A stretch of DNA of 64,000 nt, from positions 141,796,001 through 141,860,000 of the forward strand of contig CM059431.1 of assembly GCA_030390025.1 (NCBI GenBank), in the 5' to 3' direction. Positions 16,008-37,715 of the stretch are shown here, piece by piece. The notes beneath the pieces were generated by a model. The model was not told the origin of the DNA, did not search any database, and worked only from the letters and a program-made list of their open reading frames with translations. Position 1 is the first letter of the stretch; every line of letters begins with the position of its first letter. Source of the stretch: Squalus acanthias (lineage: Eukaryota). The translations under genes were made by a program, and so were the position numbers.

Positions 16008-16964
16008 TTAGTTTAAAGCCCTCTCTACAGCCCTAGTTATTCGATTCGCCAGGATTCTAGTCCCAGCACTGGCCAAGTGAAGTCCGTCCCAACGGAACAG
16101 CTCTCTCCCATCCCAGTACTGGTGCCAGTGTCCCAACAAGCAAAACCCATTTCTCCCACACCAGTCTTTGAGCCACGCATTTAACTGTCTGATTTTATTT
16201 ACCCTAGCCAAATTTGCTCGTGGCTCAGGTATTAATCTAAAGATTATTACCCTTGTGGTTCTGCTTTTTAATTTGGCCCCTAGCTGCTCATACTCCCTCA
16301 GCATAACCTCTTTCCTTGTCCTATCTATGTCGTTGGCACCAACATGGACCACGACAACTGGATTCTCCCCCTCCCACTCCAAGTTTCTCTCCAGCCCAGA
16401 GGAGATTTCCTTAACCCTGGCACCGGGCAGGCAACACAACCTTCGGGACTCTCGCTCTCGGCTGCAAAGAACCCTATCTATCCCCCTTATGATACTATCC
16501 CCTACCTATACAACATTTCTTTTTACTGCCCCCACTTGTATTGCCCCCCGTTCCACGGTGCTGTGGCCAGGTGGCTCATCCTTCCTGCAGTCCCTGCTCC
16601 CGTCCTCACAGGGAGTAAGAGCCTCGAACCTGTTGGACAAGAGCAAGGGCTGTGGCTCCTCCAACACTACCTCCTGGATCACCGTACCTGCCTCACTCAT
16701 AGTCACACCCTCCTGTCCCTGACCACGGACTGCATCTGAATTTGTTAATCTAATTGGTGTGACTACTTCCTGGAACACAGAGTCCAGGCAACTCTCCCCC
16801 TCCCTGATGTGTCGCAGTGTTTGAAGCTCGGACTCCAACTCATCAACACGGAGCCGGAGTTCCTCGAGCAGCCAACACTTACTGCATATGTGATCACCGT
16901 GAGCATCAATGGTGTCCACCAGCTCCCACATATTGCAGCAGTAACACATCACCTGCTCTCCCAT
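16008..16964 (-). pseudogene. CR1 ORF1 (CxxC...CxxC zinc finger, coiled coil, SGNH/GDSL esterase), one in-frame stop
   Basis: ORFs 16506-16964 and 16008-16439 are in one frame; CLPGA, HVGAND and DGLHL motifs. Confidence 0.9.
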
Positions 16965-20600: not shown

Positions 20601-22507
20601 CGGCTATTTTTGAATTATTCAGGCGATGTTTTCCAACAGGTTTTGCAAGGACAGGTTGGAGAAGCTGGATTTATTTTCATTGGAGCAAAGGAGGTTGAGG
20701 GGTGATTTCATAGAGGTGTGTAAGATTATGACGCGTTTGGATAGGATAGACGGGAAAGGCTGTTCTCACTAGTTGATGGTATAAGGGCTATGGGACACAG
20801 ATTTAAGGTTTTGGGCAAGGGATACAGGAGGGACGTGAGGAAAATAAATGTATGCAGCGAGTGGTGAAGACCTGGAATTCGCTGCCGATGGATGTGGTGG
20901 AAGTGGAGACACTCAATGTTTTCAATGGGAGACTGGATAGGCACTTGAGGGAAATAAACTTGCAGGGCTACGGGGATAGAGCCGGGAAATGGGACTGACT
21001 GGATCGGTCTACAAAGAGCCAGCATGGAGTCGATGGGTCGAATAGACTCCTTCTGAGCTGTTATGGCTCTGGCATAGCATAATTTCTCCCCCTTATATTG
21101 TACTCCTATAGATATAAAGACCAGCATTCAATTAGCCTTTTTGATTATTTTCTGTACTTGTTCATGACAATTTAATGATAAATGTACATGGACCCTTAAG
21201 TATCTTTAGACATCCACTGGTTCCAGGTTTACTTCGTTTAGAATGTATTCTGATCTCTCTTTATCTACGCTTCACTCTTTAAGGCTAATACTTCCTTCCT
21301 AATGTGTGGTGCCCGGAACTGAATACAGTCTAATCAGCGCTTTGTATAGCTGCAGCATAACTTGCCCCCTGATACTGTAGTACTCTAGATATAAATATCA
21401 GCATTGCATTAACCTTTTTTTTATTATTTTCTGTACCTGTCCATGATATTTCATGTTATATGTACATGGAAACGTAAGTCTCTTTGGACCTCCACTGTTT
21501 CTAGCCTCTCACTATTTATCACTCTGATCTGTCTTATTTGGGTCCAAAGTCGATAATCTCATACTTGCCTAGATTAAAAATCATTTGCCAAAGTTTTGTC
21601 CAGTCAGTTAATCTATTAATATCTCTTTATAATTTCATGCTTCCATCTACATCTACATATACATCTTTATCGGCAAACTTGGATATCTGGTTTGGATATG
21701 CGGTTTGTTAAGAAGATGGAAACCCATGGCATGAAGTGGAAAGTGGCGGATGGCTACAAAATATGCTCAGTGATAGGAAGCCAATAGTGGTCGTGGATGG
21801 ATGTTTTTTCAGACTGGGAGGTAGTTTGCCTTGTTGTTCACCAAGAGTAATTTTGGGTCCATTACACTTTTCACTTTTTATAAACAACATAGGGAGCAGC
21901 ATTACACACTTAGCAGATGATACGAATCTTGGAAAAGAAGTAAATCGTGATGAGGGTACTTACAGGCTTCAGGCTGACAGAGCAAGGATGGTGAAATGGG
22001 AAGAAGCGCAGATGAAGTTCAATGCGGAGAAGTGTGAAGTGAAAAGTTTAAATGAGCAGAGGAACCTTGGTGTCTATACCAAGTCAGTACAGAGTGCTGT
22101 GAGTTTGGGTAAGTGGGAGTAGTTCTTTAATTGTTAGTTCTCTTTAAATCATTCTTGATAAGAGTACTTCAGAAGTTTAAGTGAAGGGGAAAAGTTATCT
22201 ATTTGGAATTCTGTTGGTTTAAGAAGAGTAAAACAAGGTTACACTGCAGTAGCAGTAAATTGGCACATCAGGCAGTGGAAACCAGTTTTCTAATCAATCA
22301 GCAGGTGTCAAAGTCAGAGGGCGGGGCCAATTCATTGGTACCCGTATATAGGTGGAGCTGTTGCTAAGCCCGAGACACAACACTAGTAGTGTCTCCCACC
22401 CTCCCACCTCCTCTAACCTTTAGGGGTAGAGGGAATTTAAAAGGTAGGTTCGATTTATATTTTGTTTTCAGGGACTTAACTTAATAAAGTGATATAAGGG
22501 TTAAGTC

Positions 22508-23452
22508 ATGGCAGGAAATCTCGGAACCGTGTCGTGCTCCTCCTGTGCTATGTGGGAAATCAGGGACACTTCCATTGTCCCTGACAACTATGCGTGCAGG
22601 AAGTGCGTCCAGCTGCAGCTCCTGACGGACCGCATGGCGGCACTGGAGCTGCGGATGGACTCACTCTGGAGCATCCACGATGCTGAGAACTTTGTGGATT
22701 ACTCATTTAGTGAGTTGAACACACCGCGGGTAAAGGCTAGGTCAGACAGTAAATGGGTGACCAAGAGGCAGGGCAATATCAGGAAGGTAGTGCAGGAGTC
22801 CCCTGCGGTCGTCTCCCTCCAAAACAGATATACCGTTTTGGATACTGTTTGGGGAAATGACCTACCAGGGGAAGGCACCGGCAGCCAGGTTCATGGCACC
22901 ATGGCTGGCTATGCTGCACAGCAGGGCGGGAAAAAGAGTGGTAGAGCTATAGTGATAGGGGACTCAATTGTAAGGGGATTAGGCAGGAGTTTCTGTGGCC
23001 GCAACCGAGATTCCAGGATGGTATGTTGCCTCCCTGGTGCAAGGGGCAAGGATGTCTCAGAGCGGCTGCAGAACATTCTGGAAAGGGAGGGTGAAGAGCC
23101 AGCTGTCGTGGTGCATGTATGTACCAACGATATAGGTAAAAAGCGGAAAGAGGTCCTACAAGCAGAATTTAGGGAGCTAGGAGCTAAATTGAAAAGTAGG
23201 ACCTCAAAGGTAGTAATCTCTGGGTCGCTACCAGTGCCACGTGCTAATCAGAGTAGCATGAACAGGATAGCGAGATTAAATACGTGGCTTGAGCAGTGGT
23301 GCAGGAGGGAGGGATTCAAATACCTGAGGCATTGGAACCAGTTCTGGTGGAAGTGGGACCTGTACAAAAGGGACGGTCTGCACTTGGGCAGGACTGGAAC
23401 CGATGTCCTCGGGTTAATATTTGCTAAGGCAGTTCGGGAGGATTTAAACTAA
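22508..23452 (+). CDS. CR1 ORF1, open 314 aa (zinc finger + SGNH esterase)
   Basis: CSSC...CRKC, VIGDSIVR, CLPGA, TNDIG, DGLHL. Confidence 0.92.
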   Translation: MAGNLGTVSCSSCAMWEIRDTSIVPDNYACRKCVQLQLLTDRMAALELRMDSLWSIHDAENFVDYSFSELNTPRVKARSDSKWVTKRQGNIRKVVQESPAVVSLQNRYTVLDTVWGNDLPGEGTGSQVHGTMAGYAAQQGGKKSGRAIVIGDSIVRGLGRSFCGRNRDSRMVCCLPGARGKDVSERLQNILEREGEEPAVVVHVCTNDIGKKRKEVLQAEFRELGAKLKSRTSKVVISGSLPVPRANQSSMNRIARLNTWLEQWCRREGFKYLRHWNQFWWKWDLYKRDGLHLGRTGTDVLGLIFAKAVREDLN

Positions 23453-26441
23453 TATGGCAGGGGAATTGGAACCTATGTAGCGAAACAGGGGGAAGTAATA
23501 TGCAGTCAGAAACAAATGTTAGAAGGGTGAGAAACAATAAAGGAAATCCGAGTAAACAAAGGCAAGAAACACAAAGGGCCATACTAAATCATAAGTCTAA
23601 AAGGACAAAGGGTGTTAATAAAACAAGCCTAAAGGCTCTGTGTCTTAATGCAAGGATTATCCGTAATAAGGTGGATGAATTGACTGTGCAAATTGATGTT
23701 AACGGATATGATGTGATTGGGATTACAGAGACGTGGCTCCAGAACAATCAAGGCTGGGAACTGAATATCCAGGGATATTCAACATTCAGGAAGGATAGAA
23801 TAAAAGGAAAAGGTGGTGGGATAGCATTGCTGGTTAAAAAGGAGATTAATGCAATAGCTAGGAAGGTCATTAGCTTGGAGGATGTGGAATCATTATGGGT
23901 TGAGCTGCAGAACACCAAAGGGCAGAAAACGTTAGTGGGGGTTTTGTACAGACCTCCAAACAGTAGTAGTGAGGTGGGGGAGAGTATGAAACAGGAAATC
24001 AGAGGTGCATGCAAAAAAGGCGCAGCAGTTATCATGGGTGACTTTAATATGCATATAGATTGGGCGACTCAAACTGGAAGCAATACGGTGGAGGAGGATT
24101 TCCTGGAGTGTTCAAGGAATGGTTTCCTAAACCAATATGTTGAGGAACCAACTAGAGGGGAGGCTATCCTGGACTGGGTGTTGTGTAATGAGGAAGGACG
24201 AATCAGCAATCTTGTGGTGCGAGGCCCCTTGGGGAAGAGTTACCATAGTATGGTGGAGTTCTACATTAGGATGGAGAAGGAAACAGTTAATTGAGAGACC
24301 ATGTTCCAGAACGTAAATAAGGGCAACTTTGAGGGTATGAGGCGTGAATTGGCGAGGTTAGATTGGCAAGCGATATTTAAGGGGTTATCAGTGGAAGGGC
24401 AATAGCGGACATTTAGAGATCGCATGGATGAACTACAGCAATTGTACATCCCTGTCTGGCGTAAAATTAAAAAAGGGAAGGTGGCTCAACCATGGCTAAC
24501 AAGGGAAATCAGGGATAGTATTAAAAGCAAGGTAGTGGCATGCAAATTGGCCAGAAGTAGCAGCAAACCCGGGGACAGGGATAACTTTAAAACTCAGCAG
24601 AGGAGGACGAAGGGTTTGATTAGGGCAGGGAAAATAAAATATGAAAGGAAGCTTGCGGAGAACATTAAAACGGACTGCAAAAGCTTCTATAAATATGTAA
24701 AAAAAAGAGGTTAGTAAAAACAAACGTAGGTCCCCTGCAGTCAGAAACAGGGGAAGTCATAATGTGGAACAAAGAAATGGCAGATCAATTGAACAAGTAC
24801 TTTGGTTCGGTATTTATTCTGGAGGACACAAACAACCTTCCGGAAATAAAAGAGATCAAAAGATCTGGTAAGAGGGAGGAGCTGAGGGAAATCCTTATCA
24901 GTCGGGAAAAGGTGTTGGGGAAATTGATGGGACTGAAGGCTGATAAATCCGCAGGGCCTGATGGTCTGCATCCCAGAGTACTTAAGGAGGTGGCCTTGGA
25001 AATAGTGGATACATTAACGATCATTTTCCAACATTCCTTGGACTCTGGATCAGTTCCGAAGGAGTGGAGGTTGGCTAATGTAACCTCTCTTTTTAAAAAA
25101 GGAGGGAGGGAGAAAGCAGGGAATTATAGACCGGTCAGCCTGACATCGGTGGTGGTTAAAATGATGGAATCAATTATTAAAGATGTCATAACAGACAATT
25201 TGGAAAGTGGCAACATGATAGGTCCAAGTCAGCATGGATTTGTGAAAGGGAAATCATGCTTGACAAATCTTCTGGAATTTTTTGAGGATGTTTCCAATAG
25301 GGTAGACGGGGGGCGGGGGGACCAGTAGATGTGGTGTATTTGGACTTTCAGAAGGCCTTCGACAAGGTCCCACACAAGGAATTGGTGTGCAAAGTTAAAG
25401 AACATGGGATTGGGGGTAATTTGTTGACATGGATTGAGAACTGGTTGGCACCCAGGAAAGAAAGAGTAGGAGTAAATGGATCCTTTTCAGAATGGCAGGC
25501 AGTGACTAGCGGTGTACCGCAGGGTTCGGTGCTGGGGCCCCAGCTGTTTACATTATATATTAATGATTTGGACGAAGGGATTAATTGTCATATCTAAAAA
25601 ATTTGCGGATGACACTAAATTGGGAGTCAGTGTGAACAATGAGGAGGATGCTAGGAGGCTACAGAGTGACTTGGACAGGTTGGGTGAATGGGCAAATGTA
25701 TGGCAGATGAAGTACAATGTGGATAAATGTGAGGTTATCCACTTTGGTGGTAAAAATAGGGAGGCAGACTATTACCTGAATGGTGGCAGATTAGGGAAAG
25801 GGGAGATGCAACGAGACCTGGGCGTCATGGTACATCAGTCACTGAAGGTGGGAAGGCAAGTGCAGCATGCCGTCAAGAAAGCAAATGGCATGATGGCCTT
25901 CATAGCAAGGGGATTTGAGTACAGGAGTAGGGAGGTGATGCTACAGCTGTACAGGGCCTTGGTGAGGCCACACCTGGAGTATTGTGTGCAGTTTTGGTCT
26001 CCTAACTTGAGGAAGGACATTCTTGCTATTGAGGGAGTGCAACGAAGGTTCACTAGATTGATTCCTGGGATGGCCAGAATGACATATCAAGAAAGACTGG
26101 ATCAACTGAACTTGTATCCTCTGGAGTTCAGAAGAATGAGGGGGGATCTTATAGAGACGTTTAAAATCCTGACTGGTTTAGACAAATTAGATGCCGGCAG
26201 AATGTTTCCAATGTTAGGGAAAACTAAAACGAGGGGTCACAGTCTAAGGATAAAGGGGAAGTCATTTAAGTCTGAGATGAGGAGGAACTTCTTCACCCAG
26301 AGAGTGGTGAATCTGTGGAATTCTCTACCACAGAAGGTTGTTGAGGCCAGTTCGCTAAATATATTCAAAAGGGAGTTAGATATAATACTCACAACTAGGG
26401 GGATCAAGGGGTATGGTGAGAAAGCAGGAATGGGGTACTGA
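23449..26441 (+). pseudogene. CR1 ORF2 (APE endonuclease + RT), disrupted
   Basis: ORF pieces 23500-24294, 24424-24714, 24762-25328, 25331-25597, 25512-26441. Confidence 0.93.
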
Positions 26442-26854
26442 GGTAGCATGTTCAGCCATGAACGCATTAAATGGCGGTGCAGGCTCGAAGGACCGAATGG
26501 TCCACTCTTGCACCTATTTTCTATGTTTCTATGTTTCTATACACACAAATCCTTAAATGTGGCAGGAGAAGTTGAAAAGTTGGTTCAAAATTACTTGATG
26601 TAATTGGGTTTATAAATAATGGAATATAATATTGAAACAACGCGATCATGCGGGAATTTTATAAATCACTGGTAAATCCTCAGCTGGAGTATTGTTGACA
26701 ATTCTGAGCACCACACTTCAGGAAAGATGTAAACGGCTTATAAGGTGAACAGAGGAAGTTTACCAGGATTTTACCAGGGATGAGGAACTTCAGTTATGAG
26801 GAGAGGTTGGAAAAGTTAGGACTTTTCTCCTTGGAACAGAGAATGTTAAGAGGA

Positions 26855-31631: not shown

Positions 31632-34600
31632 AAAGAGATTGTAACGGGACAAAAGATGGCTCTAGATGAAGTGTAAATGGCAGAATGATCGAAAGCTGCC
31701 ATGTGGGAGAGAGAAAAAAAATGGGAAAAAAAATGGATAGGGGCAGAGGTTATGGTCTGAAATTGTTGAACTCTATGTTGAGTCCGAAGACTGTAAATTG
31801 ACTAATCGAATGATGAGGTGCTGCTACTCGAGCTTACGATGAGCTTCATTGGAACAGTGTAAGAGGCCGAGGACAGAGAGGTCAGAGTGGGAGTGGAGCG
31901 AAGAATTAAAGTGACAGGCGACTGGAAGCTCAGGGTCAACCTTACGGACTGAACGGAGGTGTTCCGCAAAGCGGTCACCGAAGCTGCGTTTGGTCTCCCC
32001 AATGTAGAGGAGACCGCATCGTGAGCAGCGAGGTCCCCTCTCAATCTTCTAAACTCCAGTGTGTACATCCCTAAACTACATAGTCTCTCCTCATAGGTCA
32101 ATCCCGCCATTCCTGGTATCAGCCTGGTGAATCGCCGCTGCACCCCCTCCATGGCAAGAACATCTTTCCTCAGATGAGGCGACCAAAACTGTACACAGTA
32201 CTCGAGGTGTGGTCTCACCAGTGCCCTGTACAGCTGCAGCAAGGTATCCCTGTTCCTGTATTCCAACCCTTTTGCTATGAAGGCCAGCATACCGTTTGCC
32301 TTCTTGACCGCCTGTTGCACCTGCATGCTCGCCTTCAGTGACTGGTGTACAAGAACACCCAGGTCTCTCTGTACTTCCCCCTCTCCCAATTTATTGCCAT
32401 TTAAATAATAATTTGCCCTCCCGTTCCTGCACCCAAGGTGGATAACTTCGCACTTGTCCACATTATAGTGCATCTGCCATTTATCCGCCCAATCACCCAG
32501 TCTGTCCAAATCGCTCTGGAGCTTCCTGGTCTCCTACTCTGAGCCCACCCCCCCTCCTAGTTTAGTGTCGTCTGCAAATTTGGAAATGCTGCATTCGACT
32601 CCCTGATCCAGGTCATTAATATAAATTGTGAACAGCTGGGGACCCAGGACAGATCCCTGTGGTACCCCACTTGTTACTGCCTGCCATTCAGAAAATGAGC
32701 CGTTTATTCCAACTCTCTGTTTTCTATCTGACAGCCAGTTCTCTATCCACGTCAATACTTTCCCCTTTATCCCATGAGCTTCAATTTTCCATGCTAATCT
32801 TTTATGTGGGACCTTATCGAAGGCCTTTTGGAAGTCCAGGTACACCACATCTACTGGCTCTCCCCCATCTATTTTACCAGTTACTCCCTCAAAAAATTCC
32901 AATAGATTAGTCAAGCACGATTTACCCTTTGTAAATCCATGTTGACTCTGTCCTATCCTGTCCCCATTTGCTAAGTGCTCGGCTATTTCATCCTTAATGA
33001 TGGACTCCAGCATTTTGCCCACAACTGATGTAAGGCTTACAGGTCTGTAATTACCTGCTTTTTCCCTACCCCCCTTTTTGAATAGTGGGGTAACGTTAGC
33101 TACCCTCCAATCCATGGGCACTGTTCCCGAGTCTAATGAATTCTGAAAAATCATGCTTAGTGCATCCGCTATCTCTAGGGCCACCTCCTTCAGTACCCTA
33201 GGATGCATGTTATCAGGCCCTGGGGATTTGTCCGCCTTCAATCCCTTTAGCTTCCTTAACACCATATCCTTAGAGATATTGATTTGCGTCAGTTCCTCCT
33301 TTGCCAATGTCCCTATTTTTCCCGATATCCCAGGGAGGTTTTTTGTGTCTTCCTTCGTAAAGACTGACCCAAAGTATGCATTTAGTTGGTCTGCCATTTC
33401 CTTATTTCCCATTATATATTCCCCCGTATCTGACTGCAATGGACCAACTTTGGTTTTCACCAGTCTTTTCCTCTTGATATACTTATAAAAGCTTTTGGAG
33501 TTAGTTTTTATATTTTCCGCCAGCTTGCTTTCGTAAGCTATTTTGCCCTTCTTGATTAAGCCCTTTGCCCTCCTTTGCTCTATCTTAAACTGTTCCCAAT
33601 CTTCCGCTCTGGCGCGTTTTTTGGCTATTTTATACGCCCTATCTTTGGATTTTATGCTGTCTCTAATTTCCCCTGTTATCCACGGTTGAGTCACCTTTTT
33701 AGATTTCCTTTTATGCCAGATTGGTATAAACAATTTTTGCAATTTTGTCATTCTATCTTTAAATGCTTGCCATTGTTTATCTACCTCCAGTCCTCCCAGG
33801 AACGTTGTCCAATCAGACCTACTCAGTTCCCGTCTAATGGCATCATAATTCCCCTTGTTTAAATTCAGGACCTGAGTCTCTGAGTCAATTTCTTCGCTCT
33901 CCATTTCGAGTGAGAAATCGATCATGTTATGATCGCTCTGACCCAAGGGTCCCCGTACAACAAGATTACTAATTAGTCCCTTCTCATTGCACAGTACCCA
34001 GTCCAATATAGCCTGTTCCCGAGTTGGTTCCTCGACATATTGATCCAGATAACCATCCCTTAAACACTCAAGGAATTCCTCCTCCTCATTATTTTTACTG
34101 ATTAGGCTAGTCCAATCTATATGTAAGTTAAAGTCACCTATGATGACAGCTGTGCTCTTATTGCACGCTTCTCTAATTTCCCTCGTGATGCCCTCCCCAA
34201 CCTCTATTTTACTATTTGGAGGCCTATATACCACTCCTATTAATGTTTTTCGCCCCTCGCTATTTCTTAGCTCCACCCATATAGATTCTGTATTAACTGA
34301 GTTAATATCCTTCCTTTCAATTGCATTTATCCCCTCTTTTACCAGCAATGCTACCCCTCCTCCCTTTCTTTTTTGTCGATCCTTCCTAAATACTGAATAC
34401 CCCTGTATGTTAAGCTCCCAGCCCTGCTCACCCTGCAACCATGTTTCCGTAATCCCAATTAGATCATAATTATTAACCTCTATTTCCACAGCTAATTCAT
34501 CTACCTTGTTCCTGATGCTTCTCGCATTAAGGTATAAAACCCTCAGGCTTTTTTTATGCTCACATTTTTTATGAATTAGTTTGGCCCTTTGTTTTTTGTT

Positions 34601-37190
34601 CCTCTCCTTTTTACCATTTATTTCTGTCTGCCTTTCACTTTCCTCTATTTCACTACATGGGTTTCTAGCCCCCTGCCATACTAGTTTAAATGCTCCCGAA
34701 CTGCTTTATCAAAATTTACCCCGAGAACCTCAGTTCCATCTTTGCACAGGTGTAGACCGTCCCTTTTGTATAGGTCACACCTACCACAAAACTGGTCCCA
34801 ATGCCTCAAAAATTTAAAACCCTCCCTCTTACACCACTGCTCAAGCCACGTATTTAGCCTAACTATCCTGTTCTCTGTACTCTTACTAGCACGTGGCACT
34901 GGTAGTAATCCAGAGATTACTACCTTCGAGGTCCTACTTTTTAGCTTGGCTCCTAACTCCCTAAATTCTACTTGTAGGACCTCTTCCCTTTTTTTAGCTA
35001 CGTCGTTGGTACCAACATGTATCACGACAACTGGCTGTTCCCCCTCCCCCTCCAGAATGTTCTGCACCCGCGCCGAGACATCCTTGACCCTTGCACCAGG
35101 GAGGCAAATTACCATCCTGGAGTCTTTACAGTATACTAAAGTGCAAGAAATAAAAGTAAATCGCTGTTTCACCTGGAATGAGTGTTTGGGGCCCTGGACA
35201 GTGGTAAGGGTGGAGGTAAAAGGCCATGTGTTGCATTTCCTGTGCTTGCATGGGACAGTGCCGGACGAAGGGAAATGGGTATTGGGGATGATAGAGGAGT
35301 GGACTAGGGTGTCGCAGAAGGAGCGGTTCCTTGGGACTGCTGAAAGGGGAGGTGAGGGGAAGATATTTTTGGGCGGTGGGATCACGCTGGAGGTGACGGT
35401 AATGTTGGAGGATGAGCCGTTGAATGTGAAAGCTGGTGGGGTGAAAGATGAGGAAAAGGGGAACCCTATCCTGGTTCCGGGAGGGAGGGGAAGTGGTGAG
35501 AGCAGAAGTGCGGTAAATAGAACTGAATCGGTCAAGGGCCATGTGAACCACAGTAGAGGGGAATCTTCGGTTAAGGAAATTGGATGACATATCGGAAGCA
35601 CTAGTATGGAAGGTATCATCGTCAGAGCAGATGCAACGGAGATGTAGAAACTGGGAGAATGGAATAGAATCCTTACAGTAATCGAGGTGGGAGGAAGTGT
35701 AGTCCAGGTAGCTGTGGGAGTCAGTGGGCTTGTAGTGAATGTTTGTCAATAGCTTATCCCCAGAAATGGAGTCAGAGAAGTCGAGGAAGGGAAGGGAAGA
35801 GTCGGAGATGGAGATGTGAAGGTGAGGGAAGGGTGGAAATTTTTAGCAAAGTGAATGACATTTTCTAGTTCAGAGCGAGAGCAGGAAACAACACCGATAC
35901 AGTCATCAATGTACCTGAAAAGGAGGTAAGGGAGGGGACCTGAGTAGGACTGGAACAAACAATGTTCCACCTATCCCACGAAAAGGCAGGCATAGCTGGG
36001 ACCCATGCGGGTTCCCATAGCGACACCTCAGATTTGGAGGAAGTGTGTGGAGTCAAAGGAGAAGTTGTTCAATGAGAGAACAAGTTCAGCCAGGCGGAGG
36101 AGGGTGTTGGTGGATGGGGGCTTGTTGGGCCTCTGTTCAAGGAAGAAGCGGAGCGCCCTCAGGCTCTCCTGGTAGGCGATGGAGGTGTAGAGGGATGGGA
36201 CGTCCAGAGTGAAACGGAGACGGTTGGGGCCAGGAAACTGGAAAATGTTAAAGTGGCAGAGAGCATCGGACGAGTCACGGATGTAGGTGTGAAGAGACTG
36301 GACAAGGGGGAGAAAAAATAGAGTAGTGATAGGAAGGGATATGTTCTGTGGGACAAGAACAGGCTGAAACGATGGGTCTACCATGGCAGTCCTGTTTGTG
36401 GATCTTGGGAAGGAGGTAGCAGCGGGCTGTGCGTGGTTGGGAAACTATGAAGTTGGCGGCCGTGGAGGGAAGTTCTCCAGAGGAGATGAAGTAAGTTACA
36501 ATCTTGGAATCGGTGGCTTGTTGTTCGGGAGTGGGGTCATGCTCCAGGCGAAGCTAGGAGGATCTGTCGGAGAGTTGGCGTTCAGCCTCCACTCGGTAGA
36601 TGTCGGTTCGCCAAACAACAACAGCACCACCCTTGTCAGCAGTTTTAATGACAATGTTGGGGATGGATCTGAGAGAATGGAGTGCTTCAAGTTCAGAAGG
36701 AGGTAGGTTGGAGATGGTAAGGGGAACAGAGAAATGGAGACGCCCGATGTCACGGCGGAAGTTTGCAATGAAAAGATCTAGACAGGTTAAGAGGGAGGGG
36801 TCCAGGTAGAACAAGAATTCTGAAAGCGGGAGAAAGGGTCAGCCGTGCGGGAGGAAGACTCCTGGCCAAAGAAGTGGGCACGGAGACGAAGGCGGCGGAA
36901 AAAGAGCTCAGCATCGTGCCGAGCTCGAAATTCATTGAGATGGGGGCGTAAGGGGATGAAGCTCAGGCATTTGCTGAGGACTGATCGTTCGGGGTCAGAG
37001 AGGGGAAGTTCAGAAGGGATAGTGAAAACACGGCAGGGGGTGAGATTGGAAGAAGGGATGGGGTCAGAGGAACATGAAGGGGAAGAAGGTTCCGGAGGGA
37101 TATTTGTGTACAAGAGTTGTTGAAGCTTGCTATCCTTGACACCTGAAAGGAAGAAAACAAGTTTTTTGTTCAAGCGCCGGATGAGGCGAA
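31632..37190 (-). mobile_element. Degenerate Penelope-like retroelement (RT + GIY-YIG), split by a CR1 fragment
   Basis: IKTADKGGAVVVW, LDVPSLYTSI, GVAMGTRMGP, RYIDD, YKPTD in 35126-37173; GIY-YIG LVYC (~35130) resumes as RCSRCGLLYIG at ~32030. Confidence 0.93.
32030..35127 (-). mobile_element. Young CR1 fragment truncated at both ends (ORF1 C-terminus + most of ORF2)
   Basis: ORF1 KDSRMVICLPGA...REHLN*; ORF2 open 34684-32537, single TAG at 32534-32536, continues in frame to RRLRGDL; no 3' UTR or tail. Confidence 0.95.
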
Positions 37191-37194
37191 GGAT

Positions 37195-37715
37195 GTGGTT
37201 GACTGTGTTCAGTTCTGGTCACCGCACCTTAGGACGGGTATATTAGCCTTGGAGGGTGTGCAGCCTAGATTTACTGGAATGATACATAGACTCGAAGGGT
37301 TAAATTACGAGGAGAGATTACTCAAATTAGGGTTGTATTACCTGGAATTTAAAAGCTTAAGGGGTGATTTGATTGAAGTATTCAAGATATTAAAGCGAAC
37401 TGATAGAGTAGATAGAGAGAAACTGTTTCCGATGTTCTAGGACGATGGGGCAGAGTCTAAAAAATAGAGCCCGACCTTTCAGGAGTGAAGTTAGGAAACA
37501 CTTCTACATGCAATGGGTGGTAGAAATTTGTAACTCACTTCCGCAATCTGCAGTTGATGCTGAGTCAATTGTTAATTTTAAACATGATCGTTTTTTGTTA
37601 ACCTCCGGGATATCGGGAAAAGGGATATAAATGGAGTTGGGTCATAGATCACACATGATCTAATTAAATGGCGGAACAGGCTCGAGGGTGTAAATGGCTC
37701 ACTCCTGTTCCTATA
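37195..37715 (+). mobile_element. Old CR1 3' fragment
   Basis: CVQFWSPHL...LRGDLIEVFKIL plus 3' UTR; inverted paralog of the fragments at ~18390-18900 and ~19840-20400. Confidence 0.85.

What the first reader, a model, noticed from the sequence alone, without database searches (positions are those of the whole stretch)
34489..34690. CR1 ORF2 with no in-frame AUG before the endonuclease, preceded by an in-phase U_UUA_AAC slippery site: candidate programmed -1 frameshift
Seen: ORF1 ends CAT TTA AAC TAG (34692-34681, minus strand). The heptamer T_TTA_AAC is in X_XXY_YYZ phase directly before the stop. Reading -1 from it gives an unbroken frame ([15 protein letters not shown]...[12 protein letters not shown]) continuous with the 651-aa ORF2. 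No in-frame ATG occurs before the endonuclease motifs: the ORF-track start at 34489 is GTG and the first Met is far inside, at DHNM. Established: U_UUA_AAC is the coronavirus -1 frameshift heptamer, whereas L1 ORF2 is made by termination-reinitiation. Inference: these CR1s express ORF2 as an ORF1-ORF2 (esterase-APE-RT) fusion, as in gag-pol. I cannot confirm how far this has already been reported for CR1.
Basis: partly seen in the sequence, partly recalled or inferred. Interest (0 to 1): 0.85.

Follow-up and report, generated by a model that had tools for sequence, protein, structure and literature searches.

The report
Frameshift site in vertebrate CR1 LINEs
A very common jumping gene of sharks, reptiles and birds (a CR1-type LINE) ends its first gene with a fixed seven-letter slippery sequence and a stop, and its second gene carries on one base back, often with no start codon, so the copying enzyme is likely made when ribosomes slip back one base, as in retroviruses.

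Summary
Observation confirmed. In this CR1 LINE copy, U_UUA_AAC (34690-34684, minus strand) is in phase directly before the ORF1 stop. [quoted passage not shown] This is the family state: 40 of 40 scored copies are identical over 451 nt, and intact copies exist. Genome-wide, 19,712 of 20,871 ORF1 ends reading Leu-Asn-stop use exactly T-TTA-AAC, while other conserved Leu codons vary freely. The site recurs in 6 of 6 amniote-type loci that reach it. Linkers to the endonuclease vary from 99 to 249 nt but keep the -1 frame, and no AUG position is conserved; three young families have none before the endonuclease. Programmed -1 frameshifting to an esterase-APE-RT fusion is the best explanation (0.85, untested). 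Against: no conserved hairpin or pseudoknot, only a G-tract 10 nt downstream; 4 of 6 amniote-type loci have an in-frame AUG at codon 5; L1 reinitiates without needing its AUG. Ten searches found no CR1 frameshift paper, but the primary CR1 papers were not held, and a -1 frameshift is stated for Dictyostelium TRE LINEs. This scan noted the site before, in this genome and others.

The parts
32030..35125 (-). Internal fragment of a young CR1-type LINE, both ends missing
   Evidence: 3096 nt, 1 difference from intact copy L033 and 2 from L032
34681..35125 (-). Last 147 codons of ORF1 (SGNH esterase), ending ...VREHLN*
   Evidence: Pfam PF13472 E=4.4e-10; the full ORF1 of a sister copy (P0001, 315 aa) matches PDB 4c1b_A 'ORF1-encoded protein' E=4.2e-30
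34684..34690 (-). Slippery heptamer T_TTA_AAC, in phase with ORF1
   Evidence: family-wide and genome-wide conservation
34681..34683 (-). ORF1 stop (TAG) directly after the heptamer; TAA or TAG in nearly all copies
   Evidence: 49 TAA, 7 TAG, 1 TGA among the 57 of 78 unselected copies with a stop at this position
34669..34673 (-). G-tract starting 10 nt after the heptamer; candidate stimulatory element (inferred)
   Evidence: positions 18-20 counted from the heptamer's first T are G in 20 of 20 representative copies; background for a run of 4 or more G starting in a 4-nt window is 77 of 2870
34547..34684 (-). Linker read in the -1 frame (LVWQGARN...HKKS), open, without ATG
33929..34546 (-). 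APE endonuclease domain of ORF2
   Evidence: PF03372, residues 60-259 of the stop-to-stop frame; motif start
32564..33070 (-). Reverse transcriptase domain of ORF2 (to the premature stop)
   Evidence: PF00078, residues 546-714, E=6.9e-27
32534..32536 (-). Premature TAG private to this copy
   Evidence: single difference from L033
23443..23452 (+). Same heptamer plus TAA in a second CR1 family in the window (...VREDLN*); first in-frame ATG at codon 20
16008..16017 (-). Same heptamer plus TAA in a third, older CR1 family in the window (...VERALN*)

Best explanation
This CR1 LINE family keeps an in-phase U_UUA_AAC directly before the ORF1 stop with ORF2 open in the -1 frame, and likely makes ORF2 by programmed -1 ribosomal frameshifting as an ORF1-ORF2 (esterase-endonuclease-RT) fusion. 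Shown: the heptamer, its phase, the fixed -1 frame, the open linker and the lack of a conserved AUG. Inferred: most ribosomes stop after UUA AAC and release ORF1p; a minority slip to UUU AAA and read on, giving a predicted junction ...EHLN-LVWQG... and a protein of about 1,300 residues. This would set a high ORF1p to ORF2p ratio, as in gag-pol. Least certain: what stalls the ribosome. The candidates are the adjacent UAR stop and a G-tract 10 nt downstream, acting as a protein-binding site or a two-tier G-quadruplex.
For: (1) Family state, not decay: 40 of 40 scored hits (of 736 candidates) are 100% identical over 451 nt; L032 and L033 are intact. (2) Codon fixation without selecting on the heptamer: 19,712 of 20,871 genome-wide. 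In 78 unselected copies all 57 with Leu at the penultimate codon use TTA, while three other conserved Leu use 6, 5 and 4 codons. (3) On a tree of 20 representative copies (median 60% identity) the third bases of the last three codons show 0 changes, against a mean of 4.6 and no zero among 52 other columns; the T is kept under six different residues (these 20 were chosen with the heptamer present). (4) All 11 families with 4 or more sampled copies have the heptamer in most copies. (5) 6 of 6 amniote-type loci that reach the site carry TTTAAACTAG; 51 of 55 cluster representatives that end at the expected place end in Leu-Asn. (6) Heptamer-to-endonuclease distances of 99-249 nt are multiples of 3 as the modal value in the young families; the median stop count in the -1 frame is 0 in 16 of 20 family/linker groups, while the other two frames always carry stops. 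(7) First Met at codons 256, 179 and 167 in three young families; elsewhere at 4, 5, 8, 20, 44, 45 and later. (8) In this family the -1 frame opens only 5 codons before the site, with no near-cognate start there. (9) U_UUA_AAC is among the most shift-prone heptamers on mammalian ribosomes (PMC5009743, passage).
Against: No translation data. No conserved 3' stem-loop or pseudoknot: fold z-scores are near 0 in this copy, the 20-copy consensus fold is empty and the pseudoknot scan does not beat shuffles. The G-tract starts 10 nt after the heptamer, beyond the 5-9 nt spacer given for structured stimulators (PMC8915115), and this family has the weakest G-tract score of the 20 (0.60). An in-frame AUG lies 4-8 codons after the site in 4 of 6 amniote-type loci and in several shark families. 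15 of 84 unselected junctions lack the exact heptamer and 12 have it out of phase; these look like decay and G-run slips. Lineages share ancestry, so copy counts overstate independence. The terminal Leu ends the esterase's last predicted helix, so a structural role for it is not excluded.
Confidence: 0.85

Rival explanations
1. Termination-reinitiation, as in L1 and SART1: ribosomes stop at the ORF1 stop and restart nearby in the -1 frame, at an AUG where there is one and at any codon where there is none. The heptamer would then be a pause or termination context.
For: This is the described route for L1 and SART1 (PMC5972666, passage), and for L1 it is thought independent of the AUG. It also predicts an open linker from near the stop. 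In-frame AUG at codons 4-8 in several lineages.
Against: It gives no reason to fix TTA among six Leu codons, AAC, and the T of the preceding codon under six residues, nor to keep one frame relation across 99-249 nt linkers. In this family the nearest AUG after the stop (34679) is out of frame and opens a 4-codon ORF. It may still add to frameshifting in AUG-bearing lineages.
Confidence: 0.08
2. The frame is changed at the RNA level: transcriptional slippage or editing adds a base near the junction, so that a fraction of transcripts encode the fusion directly.
For: One family has an unstable G-run just upstream, and its copies occur in all three frames (35 in phase, 24 fused, 15 in the third frame among 74; sample enriched by me for fused copies).
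Against: The window's family has no run longer than 3 in the site, and 66 of 66 copies are in phase. RNA-seq reads of a related organism list no insertion or deletion near the junction at the 5% level, depth 23-148. Fused copies do not cluster on the tree (22 changes, shuffled mean 20.5), so they arise copy by copy.
Confidence: 0.03
3. A spliced or internally started RNA brings ORF2 in frame with an upstream start.
For: The 5' leader of L032 holds donor-like and acceptor-like strings, seen by eye, and CAG/G follows the stop in the WQG families.
Against: No forward joint lands in the junction region in two RNA runs (related organism, reads mostly from dead copies). The AG is missing in some families, for example L117 and L223. 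It does not explain the codon phase.
Confidence: 0.02
4. Leu-Asn is needed by the esterase, and the nucleotides are kept by an unrelated cis element (packaging or RT binding); ORF2 starts in some other way.
For: 51 of 55 representatives end in Leu-Asn; the Leu closes predicted helix 296-314.
Against: Teleost esterase ORF1 homologues end otherwise. The match to the solved esterase stops at residue 311, and model confidence falls to 69 over residues 311-315. A cis element that is exactly a canonical slip site in the right phase before a -1 ORF would be a coincidence.
Confidence: 0.02

Closest known systems
Coronavirus ORF1a/1b -1 frameshift site (U_UUA_AAC; PMC8915115, passages)
   Same: Identical heptamer in the same phase, with the polymerase ORF in the -1 frame
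   Different: No 3' pseudoknot found here; a UAR stop follows the heptamer at once and a G-tract lies 10 nt on
Retroviral gag-pol -1 frameshifting (ALV-E gag-pol passage in PMC11835228; otherwise established knowledge)
   Same: An upstream particle-forming ORF fused at low rate to an RT ORF
   Different: Non-LTR element; ORF1 is a zinc-finger/coiled-coil/SGNH esterase protein; no protease, so the fusion would stay whole unless a host enzyme cuts it
Dictyostelium TRE5-A and TRE3-A (APE-type non-LTR elements; PMC5911963, figure-legend passage)
   Same: Stated in that review to need a -1 frameshift for ORF2: a precedent among LINEs
   Different: Other clade, unrelated ORF1; I did not see the primary papers, the site's sequence or whether it was measured
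L1 and SART1 ORF2 termination-reinitiation (PMC5972666 and PMC3894237, passages and parts 1-2 of 3)
   Same: Bicistronic LINE RNA with low ORF2 output
   Different: Those make a separate ORF2p across a 63-nt spacer or a UAAUG overlap; here there is no UAAUG, no conserved AUG and a fixed slip site
Arterivirus nsp2 frameshift stimulated by PCBP and nsp1-beta on a C-rich motif (PMC8915115, passage)
   Same: Frameshift site with no downstream structure and a short low-complexity motif instead
   Different: The motif here is G-rich; no binding protein is known; analogy only
ZfL2-1 esterase ORF1p (PDB 4c1b; PMC3905857, passages)
   Same: Same SGNH esterase ORF1 type
   Different: Teleost homologues of that type lack the Leu-Asn end; the paper's main text has no occurrence of 'frameshift'

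Membership tests
Canonical programmed -1 frameshift site | X_XXY_YYZ heptamer in phase with the upstream ORF | tested here: met
   66 of 66 copies of this family
Canonical programmed -1 frameshift site | Downstream ORF open in the -1 frame from the heptamer, with no stop | tested here: met
   983 codons in L032; linker stop counts
Canonical programmed -1 frameshift site | Heptamer conserved beyond what the protein needs | tested here: met
Canonical programmed -1 frameshift site | Stimulatory stem-loop or pseudoknot 5-9 nt downstream | tested here: not met
   a conserved G-tract 10 nt downstream instead
Canonical programmed -1 frameshift site | Measured trans-frame product | not testable with these tools
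   needs a reporter, mass spectrometry or ribosome profiling
CR1-type LINE with esterase ORF1 | ORF1 with SGNH esterase; ORF2 with APE then RT | tested here: met
CR1-type LINE with esterase ORF1 | Placement in the CR1 clade by an RT tree against reference elements | not tested
   no Repbase or Dfam references at hand; the label rests on the layout, the short-repeat 3' tail of L032 and recalled family features
Termination-reinitiation LINEs (L1, SART1) | Overlapping UAAUG or a conserved in-frame AUG near the ORF1 stop | tested here: not met
   none in three young families; present at codons 4-8 in some lineages only
Termination-reinitiation LINEs (L1, SART1) | ORF2p made as a separate protein, dependent on ORF1 termination | not testable with these tools
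   needs an experiment

The most novel reading that the evidence does not exclude
Esterase-ORF1 CR1 LINEs from sharks to amniotes have made their reverse transcriptase as a Gag-Pol-like fusion through one slip site kept since their common ancestor, and the slip is driven not by a hairpin or pseudoknot but by the adjacent stop and a G-tract 10 nt downstream: a natural G-quadruplex or protein-bound stimulator, which a 2016 review called anticipated but not known in nature.
Probability: 0.35. Interest if true: 0.9.

Novelty: new variant of a known kind. Interest (0 to 1): 0.76.

Why it matters
How LINEs translate ORF2 is described as an open question (PMC3894237). CR1 is the most abundant transposed-element family of birds, crocodilians, turtles and snakes (PMC4316615, abstract start). 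A fixed slip site gives a one-construct test of the answer for this clade. If true, CR1 ORF2p is annotated with the wrong N-terminus: the active enzyme would carry the esterase and coiled coil, which bears on how the particle assembles and on any attempt to assay or use CR1 elements. The missing hairpin points to an unusual stimulator. Young, intact, near-identical copies in this genome make the test practical.

Tried and rejected
Local RNA structure 3' of the site: MFE z-scores for 20 copies, consensus folding, a simple pseudoknot scan and Rfam gave nothing conserved. Long-range pairing of the G-tract with the C-rich codons about 630 nt upstream ranked in the top 5% in 7 of 7 elements where the motif was found in frame (9 of 16 had none), but the codons encode a conserved Pro and no compensatory change was seen: not accepted. 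In-frame fused copies as source elements: rejected, no clustering on the tree. Scans for shark-type relatives in metagenome and viral contigs found none; the prokaryote genome scan gave 21 distant bacterial esterase loci, left out of all counts. Of 20 amniote-type loci, 14 end before the site and were not counted. Low-level indels at the site in RNA reads (below 5%) remain unexamined. DNA for the named ray and alligator proteins was not obtained, so those species count at the protein level only. The Atlas look-up for the flanking element gave no answer. Papers not held: Haas 1997, Kajikawa 1997, Kapitonov and Jurka 2003, Alisch 2006, Kojima 2005; no supplements were read.
Full report
What is there. 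The window is G000:C7:141796001-141860000 of a 3.7-Gb genome; named homologues of ORF1 come from a sawshark (69%) and rays (about 50%), so a cartilaginous fish is inferred. The finding lies in a 3,096-nt internal fragment (35125-32030, minus strand) of a LINE with an SGNH esterase ORF1 and an APE-RT ORF2. The GTG at 34489 lies behind the first endonuclease motif, and the 651-aa length comes from a TAG private to this copy.

Not decay. 40 of 40 scored genomic hits (736 candidates) are identical to the junction over 451 nt. Of three full-length copies fetched, L032 and L033 have an ORF1 of 315 residues and an ORF2 of 988 codons stop to stop; L031 has one internal stop. A family that recently spread therefore had no AUG before its endonuclease. 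Two more young families share this, with first Met at codons 167 and 179.

Codon-level test. A DGLHLx pattern that ignores the junction has 33,204 matches (control 765). Of these, 20,871 read Leu-Asn-stop 18 codons later, and 19,712 (94%) use exactly T-TTA-AAC. I took the first 90 pattern hits on contig C1; 83 had an esterase end, giving 84 junctions: 57 with the heptamer in phase, 12 out of phase, 15 without the exact heptamer, which look like single changes or deletions. Among the 78 of them scoring 40 bits or more, all 57 with Leu at the penultimate codon use TTA and 52 of 55 Asn use AAC, while the conserved Leu at -23, -21 and -13 use 6, 5 and 4 codons. All 11 families with 4 or more copies have the heptamer in most copies; 7 singletons lack it. 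On 20 real representative copies (33-96% identical, chosen with the heptamer present, so illustrative only) the last three third positions show no change, against a mean of 4.6 and no zero in 52 other columns, and the T is kept under His, Gly, Asp, Ala, Ser and Cys.

Breadth. Full-length shark, ray and alligator ORF1 homologues end in Leu-Asn after varied residues, whereas teleost esterases of the other type do not. Of 150 listed 50%-identity representatives, 78 reach the end of a profile that omits the last 14 residues; 55 stop at the expected place and 51 of these end in Leu-Asn (the search profile itself held the Leu-Asn). A metagenome scan gave 20 amniote-type loci (bird-like by recall); the 6 that reach the site all have TTTAAACTAG, 5 in phase with the matched frame and one after an upstream shift in that copy.

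The frame downstream. Heptamer-to-endonuclease distances are 99-249 nt and their sequences barely align, yet the modal values in the young families are multiples of 3; in six such families 173 of 185 copies keep the -1 relation. The linker's median stop count in the -1 frame is 0 in 16 of 20 groups, and the other frames always hold stops. In-frame AUGs fall at codons 4, 5, 8, 20, 44, 45, later, or nowhere. In the window's family the -1 frame opens only 5 codons upstream, with no near-cognate start. ORF2 translation must therefore enter at or just after the site.

Mechanism. Frameshifting explains every fixed base: U_UUA_AAC allows re-pairing on UUU AAA and is among the most shift-prone heptamers (PMC5009743). 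The predicted product is ORF1p extended by LVWQG... to about 1,300 residues. The stimulator is the weak point. No conserved hairpin or pseudoknot was found. What is conserved is a G-tract in fixed register: G at positions 18-20 in 20 of 20 and at 25-26 in 19 of 20, the window's family being the exception. It includes third codon positions of the -1 frame, which suggests an RNA-level role. G-quadruplexes stimulate frameshifting in synthetic constructs, with natural use 'not currently known but anticipated', and arteriviruses use a protein-bound C-rich motif with no structure. Either could apply; neither is tested.

Rivals. Reinitiation is the described route for L1 and SART1 and need not use an AUG. 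It fits the open linker and the AUG at codon 5 in 4 of 6 amniote-type loci, but not the fixed codons (0.08; it may coexist). RNA-level slippage and splicing get little support: two RNA runs of a related organism cover the junction at depth 23-148 and list no indel or forward joint there at the 5% level, though such reads come mostly from dead copies. Fused copies in a family with an unstable G-run do not cluster on its tree. A structural need for the terminal Leu is possible but cannot fix codons.

Literature. Ten full-text searches found no paper reporting a CR1 frameshift. Seen as passages: PMC5009743 (first 300,000 of 449,034 characters held; no 'CR1'), PMC4255032, PMC11835228, PMC3708506, PMC5972666, PMC4316615, PMC5006619, PMC5911963, PMC3905857, PMC8915115; parts 1-2 of 3 of PMC3894237. 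PMC5911963 states that Dictyostelium TRE5-A and TRE3-A need a -1 frameshift, so the idea has a precedent among LINEs. The primary CR1 papers were not held and may mention the overlap. Earlier notes of this scan report the same site in this genome and in others; they are not independent evidence, but they gave me the TRE and esterase-paper leads.

Verdict. A real, deeply conserved feature; programmed -1 frameshifting is likely (0.85) and unmeasured. New variant of a known kind: known recoding, in a LINE clade where I found no report of it, without the usual structured stimulator. Interest 0.76.

Noticed in passing
window 35126-37218 and 31824-32029, minus strand: The CR1 fragment lacks both ends and sits inside another retroelement: the flanks read ...TLVYC on one side and RCSRCGLLYIGETKR... 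on the other, which resembles a Penelope-type GIY-YIG domain (recalled; Pfam gave no hit). A copy missing its 3' end does not fit ordinary target-primed insertion.
   Followed up: partly
L174-L193 and relatives (family ending ...ASTVGGG): An unstable G-run just before the heptamer puts copies in all three frames; some have ORF1 and ORF2 fused in one frame of up to 1,290 codons. They do not form clades.
   Followed up: yes
L032:1850-2380: The 5' leader of the intact element holds several splice-donor-like strings and one acceptor-like string, seen by eye.
   Followed up: no
window 22478-26534, plus strand: A nearly full-length copy of a second CR1 family, 74% identical to the window's family, with the same junction.
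   Followed up: partly
P0012: A protein labelled Pseudomonas aeruginosa SGNH hydrolase is 57% identical to this ORF1 and ends in GLN; probably animal DNA in a bacterial assembly.
   Followed up: no
P0033, P0049, P0154: Predicted proteins that run from the esterase into FKL..., the -1 frame peptide; probably single copies with an indel or gene-model joins.
   Followed up: no
junctions of all families: The ORF1 stop is almost never TGA, although C-TGA would still give Leu in the -1 frame.
   Followed up: partly
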